Origin: a virus
Direction: 5' to 3' (one strand)
Virus record (IMG/VR): IMGVR_UViG_3300035138_000114
DNA length: 64,000 nucleotides
The notes under the pieces were generated by a model. It was not told where the DNA came from, did not search any database, and worked only from the letters and a program-made list of their open reading frames with translations. A program made the position numbers and the translations under genes. Position 1 is the stretch's first letter, and each line of letters starts with the position of its first letter. Positions 38,518 through 42,302 of this stretch are shown piece after piece.

Positions 38518-38889
38518 TCATTCTCCCTCCTGGTTTTCTTCTTGTAGCGGGCACCAATAGTTTCTCAAGAACTGGGCAAAAGTTGTCGAAATACAGAAGT
38601 TAATAACAGGCGAAGCCGGGATGGTTCTCATCTGTTTAACCTCTCCCCCAGTTTTATTAAAGGTTTCAATGTCAAATCGGGAATGTGCCCGCCGATTTGT
38701 TAAGGAAATGACTCCTAAATGTTTCCATGTAAATTTAGGAGATTCAAACAATAGTTCCACAAGTGCTTGTGAAAAAGCCCCGATTACCTTCTTGACCGTC
38801 CCTCGGGGAAGGCCAGTTTTTTCCATTATCCTGTCAACTACCGGTTTACTTGCTTCCCATTTTTTGGGATAAATTGGAATATCCTTCAT
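38518..38889 (-). CDS. HU/IHF-like DNA-binding protein
   Basis: V..I..KTGL....V..VI..F...L.E.L, LG.I....R, IPA...I.F pattern. Confidence 0.65.
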   Translation of the reverse strand: MKDIPIYPKKWEASKPVVDRIMEKTGLPRGTVKKVIGAFSQALVELLFESPKFTWKHLGVISLTNRRAHSRFDIETFNKTGGEVKQMRTIPASPVINFCISTTFAQFLRNYWCPLQEENQEGE

Positions 38890-39515
38890 AATGTTTTATT
38901 CCTTTCTTTCGCTTTACTTTCAGTCTCTTTCAGAGATTTCTTTCTTTTGCGTAAACGGTGTAACCCGCTGTCCTCGATACGTCTTACCCATTCACGGCAA
39001 ACTGAAAAAATCCGGCTTATTTGTTCTAACGTGTAGCCTTTATCCTCTCCAAATGAAGACAAAAGCCGATACCGGGCTAAAAGGCAATAAATCTCTCTGT
39101 TAACTCCGGGAGTTTTTTGCCAGTATTGACAAGTCCGGTAAGGACACTGTTCTTTCCGAAATTCGGCATGGATTTTCTCAATGGGTAATAATAAAATTTC
39201 ATCTCTCACCGCCCGTGAACACTTGTAAATAATAGAAACCCATGTCCGGTTTTCCCGTTTCATCAAAGGTTCTTTCTGTCCGAAGTTCAGAGCAAAAAGA
39301 TCAACATAAAGCACATTGAAAGAAGTATCTAAAGTAATAGGAAGTTTCCCTAGTCTAAACGGATTATATTGATCTTTGGATAATTCAATCGTGTCTTGTG
39401 TTGTATAGTCAATGATTATGTAATTTTGGAAGCTCAAATGTGTCCGTGTCGGGAGAGAACATATTTCTTGGTTTCTATTAAGAATCATTTTAAAGAAGTA
39501 TCCAAAGTCTTTCAA
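38886..39515 (-). CDS. sigma70 region-4-like HTH protein with Cys motif
   Basis: YTLEQIS.IFSVCREWVRRIE..GL.RLR; CPYRTC..W...C; start may be ATG at 39488. Confidence 0.7.
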   Translation of the reverse strand: MKDFGYFFKMILNRNQEICSLPTRTHLSFQNYIIIDYTTQDTIELSKDQYNPFRLGKLPITLDTSFNVLYVDLFALNFGQKEPLMKRENRTWVSIIYKCSRAVRDEILLLPIEKIHAEFRKEQCPYRTCQYWQKTPGVNREIYCLLARYRLLSSFGEDKGYTLEQISRIFSVCREWVRRIEDSGLHRLRKRKKSLKETESKAKERNKTL

Positions 39516-40128
39516 TCCCTTTCAGAGATTTATTAGCTTTTCTACATGGAAATAAACCGGGAACGCCTAACAGACCAATATCTTTCAATCCCTTTCAGAG
39601 ATTTATTAGCTTTTCTACGCACGTTAAGGAGAAAATTATGAACCAATTACTTCAACCTTTCAATCCCTTTCAGAGATTTATTAGCTTTTCTACCAAATCT
39701 ATAATCTGGAATCTGCTATCTATCAGCGGCTTTCAATCCCTTTCAGAGATTTATTAGCTTTTCTACTTGGGCGTCCTGGCGAGGGCGCCTTTTTTATGCC
39801 CCCTTTCAATCCCTTTCAGAGATTTATTAGCTTTTCTACGCGATTGTTGACGGGCAAACAGGGGATATTCTGGTACTTTCAATCCCTTTCAGAGATTTAT
39901 TAGCTTTTCTACTCAATGACGGGCTATTCCCGTCAACGGTATGGGACTTTCAATCCCTTTCAGAGATTTATTAGCTTTTCTACTCAACCGGGCTTCCTGG
40001 ACAGTTAACGAATCCCGGTCCTTTCAATCCCTTTCAGAGATTTATTAGCTTTTCTACAGCATTACAAGCAGAATTTGCCGGGTATGAGAAGCTTTCAATC
40101 CCTTTCAGAGATTTATTAGCTTTTCTAC
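39509..40128 (-). CRISPR. CRISPR array: 9 identical 37-bp repeats, 8 spacers of 34-38 bp
   Basis: Repeat on - strand GTAGAAAAGCTAATAAATCTCTGAAAGGGATTGAAAG; + strand starts 39509, 39582, 39657, 39730, 39803, 39876, 39947, 40021, 40092; orientation inferred from the ATTGAAAG 3' end. Confidence 0.98.
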
Positions 40129-40335
40129 TGCTTGTTTCTATCTGCCCGGTATCACGTAAGTCAATTTCCTGTTTCCGAGCACCTGGCACAAATCTCTAAA
40201 AATGCTGTCAAAGAACTATAAATTTTGTCTTTTTAAGGGTACAAATGCCTTATATATAGTCTCCGAGCAATCATTTTGTCTTAGCCATGTTTGTAGGCAG
40301 ATACAGAATGTTGCTTTGTCAGCATCCCCTGCTCG

Positions 40336-40436
40336 GCAATCTCTGAAAGCGTTCGGAGGAAGGGAAAACCCTCCCACACTGGACGTGAAATACGCCACAT
40401 AGCCGGTCAGTATCATACTTTCCGGGTACTTGTAAT
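40336..40436 (-). ncRNA. tracrRNA (copy B)
   Basis: Anti-repeat CTTTCAGAGATT (40338-40349) complementary to repeat AATCTCTGAAAG; promoter TTGACA(40465-40470)-18 nt-TAATAT(40441-40446). Confidence 0.8.
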
Positions 40437-40466: not shown

Positions 40467-42302
40467 TCAAGAAATTTCTGATAATTTTATTATTTTAGGT
40501 GAGCGTAAACAAGCAAGGAATTGGCTACGATCCCCTTGCCAATTTCCGCTTTTTACGGCGATATTAGCGGCTCCGTTACAATCGGCGTTAACATGAGTCC
40601 CGTTATTTGTCTGGTATAGTCCTCGTTTCCTGCGTTTTTTTAATGATTTGGAAAATGTATGGAGTTCGTTGCTTCCATCATACGTAGGAATCTCCATATA
40701 ATCCAAAAAAGAACATAAAGATGTGAAACTTTCTTCATGTTCAATATAAGCTATTCCTTCCGGCTCGCAGGCATATTTTAGATAATTCCGTAACTGTAAA
40801 AACGGGATTTGCACAAAATTTTGAGTATTCCGTTTCCCTATATTTACACCTTGTTTCCATCCGACGTTCACCCCAACAACAACCGTATTGATGTGATGCT
40901 TAACGCAGTAATCTACAATATATCTGGCAACCTGTTGCATGATATATTCAATTTTGGCATTCCGGCGACGGGTGATTCGGTAAAGCTGCCGTGACTGTGG
41001 AAATTTGTGAGATTGAGTCGAAAACGGGACAACCAATTGTTGCCATTGCTTCTGTTCATCTCCTGTTAAATGACATGCTAAAATGAGTTTTTGCGCTGTG
41101 GCAAAAGACTGTCCACAAAGTTGTTTATACCGTAATAATAGGTCATCAGGAAGAACGGTTTGTAAAAGTTGGATACTCTCTTCAGTTACACTATATTTTG
41201 AACGAGGATCTTGATCTGCCATACATTCCCGTAATCGGGCACATTCTTTATTCCAAAACCAATTGATTGATTTGACAGAAGATCCTTTGAATAAAAACGC
41301 GAATGGAGTCTCCATGTCCACACAGGCCGCAAGATTATTAACCCCAAGATCAATTCCCATTATCCTTATGCTGTCAGGCGTTGTAGTTGTCGGAACAGAT
41401 GCTTGGTATGTCAATGATACCGAAAACTCTTCACTCCGAAATTTCGGAGTAATTTGAAGTTTCCGAATATCATTAAATTGAAGCCACTCAGGGATCGGGA
41501 TACAAATTGGTGTAAAGCCTTTATCTTTAAGCGTTTTTGAAAGGCTTAGGCGTAATGTTCGGTCATCAACTTTAACGAACCCATTCCCTATTTCGGCGAT
41601 AATTCGTCCGAATGGTGGAGCTTGATCACTTCTATGGTTTTCGCCTAAATAATGCTGGTCTTTTTTATATCCTGGAATTCGTGGAGCATCACGATACTTC
41701 TTCTTTTTTTGCTCTGCCCGAAGCTGTAAGAAAGAAAGGTGGTGCTTCTGCAAATATTTCCAGATACTTTTATCATAATTCCGTATATCTTTAACAGCTT
41801 GATCTACCATATAATGGGCGGTTTTGCTAGATATTTCAAAGTGAACCCGTGTAGACTCCCGGTGTCGAAGCACTTTTGAATCTAACGTATAGGTTGTCAG
41901 AAACCTATCGTAATATTGGCAAGATTCAAAGATTTTCTCTCCATACACGGTCATTTCAGACCGTGATAAACACTCTTTGAGGTGTTCTTCAAACTCTGAA
42001 CGGAATACCTTGCGCTTGGTAATTGGACGCAATTTAGCCCGTATTTCTTCAGGAACCGCCAGTTGTGCGATCTTATTTTTTGACAATGAATATCGGAGTG
42101 TTTCAAACTGCTCTTTACATGGGCATACCAGGCAATCAGGGCAGTCAGGGATTATTGACGGGTTAATATAATGCTGCCGACAACACCATAATGCCGCATT
42201 ATAGATTCTTGCGGCATGGATACAGAGTAGTGTTAAATGTTCCCGGTCTTGTTTCGACAGATTTGTTAAGGCAATTTTAATGGTTCTTGCTGCTAATTCC
42301 AT
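40467..42302 (-). CDS. compact TnpB-derived type V CRISPR effector (Cas12-like, 611 aa)
   Basis: RuvC-I IMGIDLGVNNLA; RuvC-II position VVVGVNVGWKQ; NFVQIPF..L..L.Y; EESFTS; RuvC-III NADCNGAANI; adjacent tracr and array. Confidence 0.85.
   Translation of the reverse strand: MELAARTIKIALTNLSKQDREHLTLLCIHAARIYNAALWCCRQHYINPSIIPDCPDCLVCPCKEQFETLRYSLSKNKIAQLAVPEEIRAKLRPITKRKVFRSEFEEHLKECLSRSEMTVYGEKIFESCQYYDRFLTTYTLDSKVLRHRESTRVHFEISSKTAHYMVDQAVKDIRNYDKSIWKYLQKHHLSFLQLRAEQKKKKYRDAPRIPGYKKDQHYLGENHRSDQAPPFGRIIAEIGNGFVKVDDRTLRLSLSKTLKDKGFTPICIPIPEWLQFNDIRKLQITPKFRSEEFSVSLTYQASVPTTTTPDSIRIMGIDLGVNNLAACVDMETPFAFLFKGSSVKSINWFWNKECARLRECMADQDPRSKYSVTEESIQLLQTVLPDDLLLRYKQLCGQSFATAQKLILACHLTGDEQKQWQQLVVPFSTQSHKFPQSRQLYRITRRRNAKIEYIMQQVARYIVDYCVKHHINTVVVGVNVGWKQGVNIGKRNTQNFVQIPFLQLRNYLKYACEPEGIAYIEHEESFTSLCSFLDYMEIPTYDGSNELHTFSKSLKKRRKRGLYQTNNGTHVNADCNGAANIAVKSGNWQGDRSQFLACLRSPKIIKLSEIS

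What the first reader, a model, noticed from the sequence alone, without database searches (positions are those of the whole stretch)
40467..42302. Effector has a rearranged RuvC-II, no C-terminal Zn finger and two insertions
Seen in sequence: the canonical RuvC-II Glu position is Gly (VVVGVN), a Glu lies downstream in EESFTS, and the usual CxxC...CxxC finger is replaced by CSFLD. Established: this matches the RuvC-II-rearranged TnpB clades (and Fanzor1), where a downstream Glu substitutes catalytically. The protein is about 200 aa longer than typical TnpB, with an N-terminal Cys cluster (CPDCLVCPC) and a helical insert after RuvC-I. Inference: a probably active nuclease with domain accretion towards a Cas12-like form.
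Basis: partly seen in the sequence, partly recalled or inferred. Interest (0 to 1): 0.6.

Follow-up and report, generated by a model that had tools for sequence, protein, structure and literature searches.

The report
Phage CRISPR nuclease with relocated glutamate
A 132-kb phage carries a small CRISPR nuclease that grew out of a transposon-type TnpB family whose catalytic glutamate sits in an alternative place and whose zinc finger is gone; its new features are four insertions (about 175 residues) and a CRISPR array, which make it a useful but not unprecedented snapshot of how Cas12 enzymes arise.

Summary
The 611-aa ORF (40467-42302, minus strand) is a TnpB/Cas12-fold protein. It has Gly477 at the canonical RuvC-II Glu position and a Glu (E524, the second E of EESFTS) 47 residues downstream. 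It has no CxxC...CxxC finger, and about 175 extra residues. The unusual RuvC/TNB features are inherited, not new. All 266 relatives collected have Gly at that position, 264 have the downstream Glu, and none has the finger. This is the published Ealt/TnpB2/RIIr layout, which has been shown active in TvTnpB and Fanzors. It is not the Fanzor-specific form, because RuvC-I reads DLG rather than DPG.

Four things are specific to this lineage:
- an 83-aa REC insertion with the CPDCLVCPC cluster;
- two short loops;
- a 61-aa helical insertion between RuvC-I and RuvC-II, where several Cas12 types carry REC2;
- a CRISPR array.

A 37%-identical sister protein keeps the 61-aa insertion and has its own 37-nt-repeat array. 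A 97%-identical sister phage has the same repeats but eight different spacers.

My reading is a probably active RNA-guided DNA nuclease, but no activity or active-site geometry was measured here. This scan earlier noted another CRISPR-linked Ealt nuclease on other DNA (e1-5297068).

The parts
40467..42302 (-). Effector gene, 611 aa (P0001), TnpB/Cas12 fold
   Evidence: ORF. Pfam and NCBIfam hits above cut-off. Fold matches AsCas12f at Z 17.0 and ISDra2 TnpB at Z 15.3. A 420-aa phage TnpB cluster matches at TM 0.87.
41349..41351 (-). RuvC-I catalytic Asp, D318 (GIDLG; D-Phi-G type, not DPG)
   Evidence: Asp in 265 of 266 relatives. Codon checked.
40872..40874 (-). G477, at the position of the canonical RuvC-II Glu, at the end of beta-strand 473-478
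   Evidence: Aligns with the Glu of AsCas12f IQMEDL. Gly in 266 of 266 relatives. Strand from the AF2 model.
40731..40733 (-). E524, the alternative (Ealt) catalytic Glu, immediately after beta-strand 518-523 and 47 residues after G477
   Evidence: Glu in 264 of 266 relatives. Aligns with the Pro of canonical DPQYTS, the same position as ApmFz2 E467 according to 10.64898/2026.06.23.733943.
40590..40730 (-). TNB domain remnant without a zinc finger (residues 525-571). S531...D534 stand in place of the first CxxC. R557 is invariant.
   Evidence: Pfam TNB hit over residues 502-581. CxxC...CxxC in 0 of 266 relatives and R557 in 266 of 266.
40581..40583 (-). RuvC-III catalytic Asp, D574 (NADCN)
   Evidence: Asp in 265 of 266 relatives.
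41904..42152 (-). Insertion 1 (residues 51-133), in the REC domain between its first helix and the conserved continuation. Predicted mostly helical at low confidence.
   Evidence: Absent from the 59 other sequences of the top-60 alignment. pLDDT about 42-61. No homologue found.
42117..42143 (-). Cys cluster CPDCLVCPC (C54, C57, C60, C62), with C40 and C41 nearby
   Evidence: Sequence. Identical in the 97%-identical variant P0267, whereas C128 is Ser there. No structure or metal assignment was possible.
41772..41816 (-). Small insertion, residues 163-177 (REC)
41613..41654 (-). Small insertion, residues 217-230 (a loop at the REC-WED junction)
41010..41192 (-). Insertion 2 (residues 371-431): four short helices between the long helix after RuvC-I (341-364) and the long helix before RuvC-II (438-468). 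This is the REC2-type position.
   Evidence: Absent from TnpB relatives. Present and alignable in the sister effector P0121 at 37% identity. No amino-acid change between P0001 and P0267. Helices from the model.
40321..40356 (-). Candidate tracrRNA anti-repeat in the 338-nt spacer between the gene and the array (context)
   Evidence: RNA duplex with the repeat at -25.9 kcal/mol, including 12 contiguous pairs, z = -3.35 against shuffled repeats. Inverted repeats I1-I3.
39509..40128 (-). CRISPR array: nine identical 37-nt repeats and eight spacers of 34-38 nt, on the same strand as the gene (context)

Best explanation
The gene encodes a probably active RNA-guided DNA endonuclease that serves as the effector of a phage-borne, adaptation-less type V-like CRISPR locus.

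It descends from inside a large family of about 425-aa TnpBs, common in phages and cyanobacteria. That family already had the alternative-glutamate RuvC site (D-altE-D) and had already lost the zinc finger of the TNB domain.

The catalytic centre is inferred to be D318 (beta-1), E524 (just after beta-5) and D574 (RuvC-III). The invariant R557 in the finger-less TNB remnant is proposed to help load the substrate.

After the locus became linked to a CRISPR array, the lineage added two main pieces. One is an 83-aa segment in REC that carries a Cys cluster. The other is a 61-aa helical module at the tip of the RuvC helical hairpin, the REC2 position. Both are inferred to give extra contacts to the guide-target duplex and/or to the split tracrRNA:crRNA scaffold.

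By analogy with TvTnpB and Fanzors, the enzyme is expected to cut its target in cis with little collateral ssDNA cleavage.

Shown here: family membership, residue conservation, insertion boundaries, conservation of insertion 2 and of the array link in a distant sister, and spacer turnover.

Inferred: nuclease activity, active-site geometry and the roles of the insertions.
For: TnpB/Cas12 membership.

Catalytic layout:
- G477 aligns with the canonical Glu, and E524 with the Pro of DPxYTS.
- Among 266 relatives, G477 is present in 266, E524 in 264, D318 in 265, D574 in 265, R557 in 266, and a finger in 0.
- In the model, strand 473-478, helix 501-515 and strand 518-523 place E524 at the end of beta-5. 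PMC10691335 describes this position for RIIr-5.

Published activity of the same layout:
- ApmFNuc E467A abolishes cleavage, and TvTnpB cleaves in a TAM-specific way without collateral activity (PMC10530073).
- The Fanzor2 structure shows D324/E467/D501 holding a Mg2+ ion (PMC11832414).

Evidence that the gene is in use:
- dN/dS is 0.19 against the 97%-identical P0267.
- P0001 and P0121 form a clade (support 0.97) nested within the TnpB family.
- P0121 keeps the triad and insertion 2. Its contig ends in two 37-nt repeats whose 3' end resembles the window's repeat.
- The sister phage locus L112 has identical repeats and eight of eight different spacers.
- An anti-repeat lies between the gene and the array.
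- The phage genome has no Cas1 and no Y1 transposase, and no spacer targets the phage itself.
Against: - No activity data exist for this protein or for any member of this exact finger-less family.
- I could not read model coordinates, so the distance of E524 from D318 and D574 was not measured.
- Both main insertions are modelled with low to moderate confidence (pLDDT about 42-61 for insertion 1 and 59-78 for insertion 2).
- Insertion 1 has no homologue, and its dN/dS of 0.67 rests on only seven changes, so it may be weakly constrained.
- No protospacer was found, so neither a PAM nor DNA as the target is shown.
- A sigma-region-4-like ORF lies directly downstream of the array. It recalls the sigma-associated dead TnpB/Cas12f systems of PMC10691335.
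Confidence: 0.7

Rival explanations
1. The protein is a binding-only, nuclease-dead RNA-guided factor, comparable to Cas12m, Cas12k, TldR or sigma-associated dCas12f. It would repress or direct transcription, perhaps together with the sigma-region-4-like ORF downstream of the array.
For: The canonical RuvC-II Glu is missing. A 209-aa ORF with a sigma-factor region-4-like C-terminus and an HU-like gene follow the array on the same strand. Exapted, inactivated TnpBs paired with sigma factors are known (PMC10691335).
Against: All three residues of the alternative triad and R557 are kept in P0001, P0267 and the 37%-identical P0121. The same layout is active in TvTnpB and Fanzors. No spacer matches the phage's own genome. 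The spacers are completely exchanged between sister phages, which fits defence or competition better than fixed regulation.
Confidence: 0.1
2. The gene is an ordinary selfish, homing-type solo TnpB that merely lies beside an unrelated array borrowed from the host. It would use its own omega-RNA, and the insertions would be neutral baggage.
For: The closest relatives are solo TnpBs in phage genomes without arrays. From my own knowledge, the repeat's 3' end ATTGAAAG looks like the handle of Cas6-processed type I/III repeats, so the array could have been captured.
Against: The gene-array link recurs with homologous 37-nt repeats in a sister protein that is only 37% identical. An anti-repeat complementary to the repeat lies between the gene and the array. 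Insertion 2 is conserved across that distance. The genome holds one copy only and no transposase.
Confidence: 0.08
3. The enzyme is active but with a different substrate or cleavage mode from a standard Cas12: it targets RNA, or it nicks.
For: Rearranged RuvC sites are proposed to alter substrate handling (PMC10691335). Rewiring the site in ApmFz2 switches cis and trans activities (10.64898/2026.06.23.733943).
Against: Every characterised Ealt enzyme (TvTnpB, Fanzor1 and Fanzor2) makes guided double-strand DNA cuts. Nothing in the sequence points to RNA cleavage.
Confidence: 0.1

Closest known systems
RuvC-II-rearranged TnpBs: 'TnpB2' (e.g. Thermoplasma volcanium TvTnpB; PMC10530073), 'Ealt + D-Phi-G' TnpBs (PMC10711439), and RIIr branches such as RIIr-5 (Glu to Gly) or the virus-enriched RIIr-4 (PMC10691335)
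   Same: Both have Gly at the canonical Glu position, a conserved Glu 47 residues downstream at the Pro position before TS, a D-Phi-G RuvC-I motif and a NADxN RuvC-III motif. The nearest sequence relatives are such TnpBs, at 36-40% identity overall and about 50% in the RuvC half.
   Different: The window protein is 611 aa against about 425. It has four insertions, is linked to a CRISPR array and an anti-repeat, and has no transposase and only one copy. It has no zinc finger, whereas the published regular expression for Ealt TnpBs requires CxxC...CxxC. Which named RIIr branch it belongs to could not be determined.
TranC (transposon-CRISPR intermediate) systems and the V-U* branches of type V (PMC10691335; 10.64898/2026.03.27.714800)
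   Same: Both are CRISPR-associated nucleases still closer to TnpB than to any named Cas12. They have short arrays with 32-38-nt repeats, no cas1 or cas2, and a tracrRNA between gene and array. Some are phage-borne (CauTranC9). Their REC or bridge-helix regions are enlarged to varying degrees.
   Different: I found no statement in the papers I could read that any TranC or V-U clade has the Gly/alternative-Glu site without a finger.
Cas12f (type V-F), e.g. AsCas12f (PDB 8dzj, 8j12)
   Same: These are the best solved-structure matches (Z 16-17, about 375 aligned residues). They are of similar small size and use a tracrRNA.
   Different: Cas12f has the canonical Glu and zinc fingers. Sequence similarity is weak: NCBIfam Cas12f2 scores 32.9 bits against a cut-off of 450, and the PADLOC Cas12f model gives E 1.9e-10. 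Sequence identity in the structural alignments is 13-17%.
Fanzor2 / pro-Fanzor (ApmFz2, PDB 9b0l)
   Same: Both have the D-altE-D layout (G416/E467 in ApmFz2, G477/E524 here). The fold match has Z 13.8.
   Different: Fanzors and pro-Fanzors have DPG at RuvC-I and keep the zinc finger. They are eukaryotic, giant-virus or cyanobacterial IS607 elements without CRISPR.

Membership tests
TnpB/Cas12 superfamily | RuvC-I/OrfB_IS605 and TNB domain profiles above their curated cut-offs | tested here: met
   PF01385 scores 40.7 bits (cut-off 30.5) and PF07282 scores 29.0 (cut-off 26.3). NF040570 guided_TnpB scores 103.5 (cut-off 100).
TnpB/Cas12 superfamily | WED-REC-RuvC-TNB fold | tested here: met
   AF2 model with pTM 0.74. 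AsCas12f matches at Z 17.0 and ISDra2 TnpB at Z 15.3. An Atlas TnpB cluster matches at TM 0.87.
Ealt / RuvC-II-rearranged TnpB (TnpB2, RIIr) | Inert residue (Gly or Pro) at the canonical RuvC-II Glu position | tested here: met
   G477 aligns with the Glu of AsCas12f. Gly in 266 of 266 relatives.
Ealt / RuvC-II-rearranged TnpB (TnpB2, RIIr) | Conserved alternative Glu about 45-50 residues downstream, at the Pro position before TS | tested here: met
   E524 lies 47 residues after G477, is Glu in 264 of 266 relatives, and aligns with the Pro of DPQYTS.
Ealt / RuvC-II-rearranged TnpB (TnpB2, RIIr) | The alternative Glu lies in the active site beside the two Asp residues | not testable with these tools
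   Model coordinates cannot be read here. Only the topology (end of beta-5) agrees.
Ealt TnpB as defined by the regular expression of PMC10711439 | Glu six residues before a CxxC...CxxC zinc finger | tested here: not met
   The spacing is kept (E524, six residues, then S531), but the finger cysteines are absent here and in all 266 relatives.
Fanzor / pro-Fanzor | DPG motif at RuvC-I | tested here: not met
   The motif is GIDLG, i.e. D-Phi-G.
Type V CRISPR effector (Cas12 in the broad sense, TranC-like) | Conserved linkage to a CRISPR array on the same strand | tested here: met
   The window array has nine repeats. The link recurs in L112 (97%-identical protein) and in L001 (37%-identical protein). 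It is absent from 160 loci of TnpB relatives.
Type V CRISPR effector (Cas12 in the broad sense, TranC-like) | Guide RNA components: an anti-repeat (tracrRNA) complementary to the repeat | tested here: inconclusive
   Duplex of -25.9 kcal/mol with z = -3.35, but one of 300 shuffled repeats scored lower (-27.5). No expression data.
Type V CRISPR effector (Cas12 in the broad sense, TranC-like) | RNA-guided interference against matching DNA | not testable with these tools
   No protospacers were found. Spacer turnover is only indirect evidence.
Cas12f (V-F) | Match to the subtype profile at its curated score, canonical D-E-D triad and zinc fingers | tested here: not met
   NF049972 scores 32.9 bits against a cut-off of 450. 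Gly stands at the Glu position and there is no finger.

The most novel reading that the evidence does not exclude
This may be the first recognised lineage of natural CRISPR effectors built on the alternative-glutamate (D-altE-D), finger-less RuvC/TNB chassis. One structural paper argues that this branch is separate from the Cas12 family (PMC11832414). The lineage appears to be caught early in domain accretion, with a REC2-position module and a new Cys-rich, possibly metal-binding REC segment. It is borne by phages and predicted to lack collateral ssDNA cleavage.
Probability: 0.35. Interest if true: 0.65.

Novelty: new variant of a known kind. Interest (0 to 1): 0.5.

Why it matters
TnpB is known to have become Cas12 many times. 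Even so, the alternative-glutamate branch has been treated mainly as the road to eukaryotic Fanzors.

A CRISPR-linked member of that branch, conserved across two very different GC backgrounds, shows that this chassis was also recruited for CRISPR.

It offers a natural comparison of 'before' and 'after'. The 'before' is a 425-aa phage TnpB. The 'after' is a 611-aa effector with dated insertions at the REC and REC2 positions.

If it is active and free of collateral cleavage, as TvTnpB and Fanzors are, it would be a compact candidate editor with a new PAM and guide architecture.

The finding also corrects one impression: the lost zinc finger and the moved glutamate are ancestral traits, so they say nothing about a recent change of function.

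Tried and rejected
- Close relatives in IMG/VR, searching with the whole protein: none apart from the window's own record.
- An alignment-based scan of IMG/VR and of GTDB genomes returned 160 loci of TnpB relatives. None has the 61-aa insertion as an intact gene, and none has an adjacent array. L128's long match is a broken gene.
It found no sister effector, so it is not evidence of absence.
- A word-indexed search with residues 1-300 found only the protein itself.
- Pfam on the two insertions gave nothing meaningful.
- A language-model look-up of residues 40-200 returned only TnpB N-terminal families (Aq_aa04, MJ0013), that is, the REC context and not the insertion.
- tblastn and blastp of the insertions against the phage genome and against the protein itself gave no sign of duplication.
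- The array against GenBank phages, and three spacers or spacer cores against IMG/VR, gave no match.
- Spacers against the phage's own genome: only the array itself.
- I considered folding a dimer to ask whether it works like Cas12f, but two copies exceed the size limit.
- I considered a complex with the sigma-like neighbour, but I make no binding claim, so no job was sent.
- Measuring distances between catalytic residues in the model was not possible, because coordinates are not exposed.
Full report
**What is there**

The window is part of a 132,054-bp virus record that CheckV rates as 95% complete. On the minus strand, 40467-42302 is a 611-aa ORF, P0001.

It passes the curated cut-offs of three profiles:
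- Pfam OrfB_IS605
- Pfam Cas12f1-like_TNB
- NCBIfam guided_TnpB (103.5 bits against a cut-off of 100)

Named Cas12 subtype profiles match only weakly. NCBIfam Cas12f2 scores 32.9 bits against a cut-off of 450, and the PADLOC Cas12f model gives E 1.9e-10.

On the same strand, 338 nt downstream, lie nine identical 37-nt repeats with eight spacers of 34-38 nt, at 39509-40128. Between the gene and the array, 40321-40356 can pair with the repeat at -25.9 kcal/mol, including 12 contiguous pairs. That is z = -3.35 against shuffled repeats, although one of 300 shuffles scored lower.

The phage has no Cas1 and no Y1 transposase. It has only this one TnpB-like gene.

**The catalytic motifs**

A phmmer alignment to AsCas12f (8j3r) puts VVVGVN opposite IQMEDL, so G477 stands where the catalytic Glu should be. 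It puts EHEESFTS opposite KIDPQYTS, so E524 stands opposite the Pro. There is no acidic residue between 464 and 512.

This matches what the literature describes:
- PMC10691335 reports Glu replaced by Gly in RIIr-5, with a compensating Glu that sits in beta-5 rather than beta-4.
- PMC10530073 reports an alternative conserved Glu about 45 residues away. It shows that ApmFNuc E467A is inactive, and that the rearranged TvTnpB cleaves in a TAM-specific way without collateral activity.
- PMC11832414 shows D324/E467/D501 holding a Mg2+ ion in the Fanzor2 structure.
- A 2026 preprint notes that Pro is the most frequent residue in canonical TnpBs at the position of the alternative Glu.

In the AF2 model (pLDDT 76.9, pTM 0.74), strand 473-478 ends at G477. 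Helix 501-515 and strand 518-523 follow, and E524 comes straight after that strand. The topology therefore agrees. I could not read coordinates, so the geometry itself remains untested.

**These features are inherited**

I collected 266 relatives from two database searches and aligned them.

| Position | Residue | Relatives with it (of 266) |
|---|---|---|
| 477 | Gly | 266 |
| 524 | Glu | 264 |
| 523 | Glu | 226 |
| 318 | Asp | 265 |
| 574 | Asp | 265 |
| 557 | Arg | 266 |
| TNB finger | CxxC...CxxC | 0 |

The consensus reads IVIGxNxGWKQ ... EESYTSKxSFLD ... RxKRGLY ... NADxNGAxNI. In P0001, C530 is one residue before the position of the first finger Cys, which is S531 and is nearly invariant.

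RuvC-I reads GIDLG. This puts the protein in the 'Ealt + D-Phi-G' class of PMC10711439 and not in the DPG class of pro-Fanzors and Fanzors.

The family is large: 3066 representatives at E ≤ 0.001. It is common in phages (Atlas cluster 56% viruses) and in cyanobacteria, Bacillota and some archaea. Its median length is 425 aa, and P0001 is the only collected member of 550 aa or more.

The two closest TnpBs are solo genes in phage-like replication modules, without a transposase or an array.

**What is new in this lineage**

Against the nearest TnpBs, P0001 has four insertions, 173 aa in total:
- residues 51-133
- residues 163-177
- residues 217-230
- residues 371-431

The rest superposes on a 420-aa phage TnpB model with TM 0.87 over 414 residues. 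It superposes on Cas12f and TnpB structures with Z 15-17 over about 330-380 residues.

Insertion 1 lies in REC after the first long helix. It opens with CPDCLVCPC (C54, C57, C60, C62), with C40 and C41 nearby. Its pLDDT is about 42-61. No homologue was found by any search.

Insertion 2 is four short helices between the long helix that follows RuvC-I (341-364) and the long helix that precedes RuvC-II (438-468). PMC10711439 describes these two helices as extending to form REC2. From my own knowledge of solved structures, Cas12b, Cas12e and Cas12j carry their REC2 or Helical-II domain at the same point. [quoted passage not shown]

**Sister systems**

The exhaustive representative search found one protein that matches through insertion 2 in a single stretch. 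This is P0121, 37% identical over residues 262-607, on a 1520-bp ENA contig of 60% GC.
- It keeps G, E, D, NADCN and an alignable insertion 2.
- In a tree of 264 sequences, P0001 and P0121 form a clade with support 0.97, nested within the TnpB family.
- The 3' end of its contig holds two copies of a 37-nt repeat separated by 36 nt. The repeat's 3' end (TGAAAGTGATTGCAAC) resembles the window's (TGAAAGGGATTGAAAG).

The array link and insertion 2 therefore predate the split of these two proteins. The N-terminus of P0121 is cut off by the contig end, so the age of insertion 1 is unknown.

A second phage contig, L112, encodes a 97%-identical protein, P0267.
- Its Cys cluster is intact, although C128 is Ser.
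- Overall dN/dS is 0.19. Insertion 2 has no amino-acid change.
- Insertion 1 has five non-synonymous and two synonymous changes, too few to interpret.
- L112 has the same repeat but eight of eight different spacers. The arrays therefore turn over, presumably through a host adaptation module.

None of 160 loci of TnpB relatives from phages and genomes has an array beside the gene.

**Mechanism and rivals**

The best reading is an active RNA-guided DNA nuclease. It would use the D318-E524-D574 site and tracrRNA:crRNA guides. Its REC and REC2-position insertions would add contacts to the guide-target duplex or the scaffold RNA. It would probably have little collateral activity, like the other Ealt enzymes.

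Three rivals remain:
- A dead regulator is disfavoured because the triad is retained across 37% identity, no spacer targets the phage itself, and the spacers are exchanged between sister phages. It keeps some weight because a sigma-region-4-like ORF and an HU-like gene follow the array.
- A plain selfish TnpB beside a foreign array is disfavoured by the recurrent linkage and by the anti-repeat.
- A different substrate, such as RNA or nicking, cannot be excluded.

**Novelty**

Recruitment of TnpB into CRISPR is well known. PMC10691335 counts about 50 events and the branches V-U6 to V-U45, and TranC systems have been described. Altered catalytic sites are mentioned for some V-U branches.

In the papers I could read, I found no description of a CRISPR effector with the Gly/alternative-Glu, finger-less layout. 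One structural paper treats the rearranged site as marking a branch separate from Cas12.

The TranC source paper and the supplementary trees were not available to me, so this lineage may already sit in a named branch. This scan has also noted another CRISPR-linked Ealt nuclease on other DNA (e1-5297068). I did not check that note.

I rate this a new variant of a known kind, of moderate interest.

Noticed in passing
L112:5795-6486 (JGI 3300056879 contig, sister phage): This phage has the same 37-nt repeat as the window, and its effector is 97% identical. All eight readable spacers differ from the window's eight, so the array has been completely replaced between near-identical phages that lack cas1 and cas2.
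   Followed up: partly
L001:1040-1520 (ENA ERZ15185718, 60% GC): The sister effector's contig ends in two 37-nt repeats (GTTGCAAC...GATTGCAAC) separated by a 36-nt spacer. The called ORF runs 106 codons past the end of homology, across what should be the tracrRNA region. This could be a GC-rich read-through artefact or a real C-terminal extension.
   Followed up: partly
window 39509-40128 (repeat 3' end ...GGGATTGAAAG): The last eight bases of the repeat (ATTGAAAG, and ATTGCAAC in the sister) look like the 8-nt 5' handle of Cas6-processed type I/III repeats. That comparison is from my own knowledge. If it holds, the array type may have been borrowed from a host class 1 system that also supplies adaptation.
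   Followed up: no
window 38518-39515 (-): A 209-aa ORF whose C-terminus hits a phage sigma-factor family (phrog_351, E 5.7e-5) starts inside the last repeat. An HU-like DNA-binding gene follows it (phrog_379, E 5.6e-5). The arrangement recalls sigma-associated dead TnpB/Cas12f systems, although the nuclease here keeps its triad.
   Followed up: partly
L106:1-5308 and L108 (Logan contigs): The closest TnpB relatives (P0002, P0003) are solo genes in phage-like DNA. They sit beside a NUMOD4 homing-endonuclease-like gene and a RecA with LAGLIDADG (intein) hits, with only about 85 nt to the next gene. This suggests homing-type spread of this TnpB family in phages.
   Followed up: no
L113-L192 (GTDB genomes): The finger-less Ealt TnpB family is strikingly abundant and multi-copy in filamentous and unicellular cyanobacteria (Okeania, Crocosphaera, Microcoleaceae). 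This may hint at the phage's host range. L128 is a broken copy.
   Followed up: no
L005:2430-2667 and L030:7778-7928 (IMG/VR): Short arrays of three or four spaced repeats lie about 1.3 kb upstream of one phage TnpB relative and at the contig end near another. I did not examine whether they are CRISPR-like.
   Followed up: no
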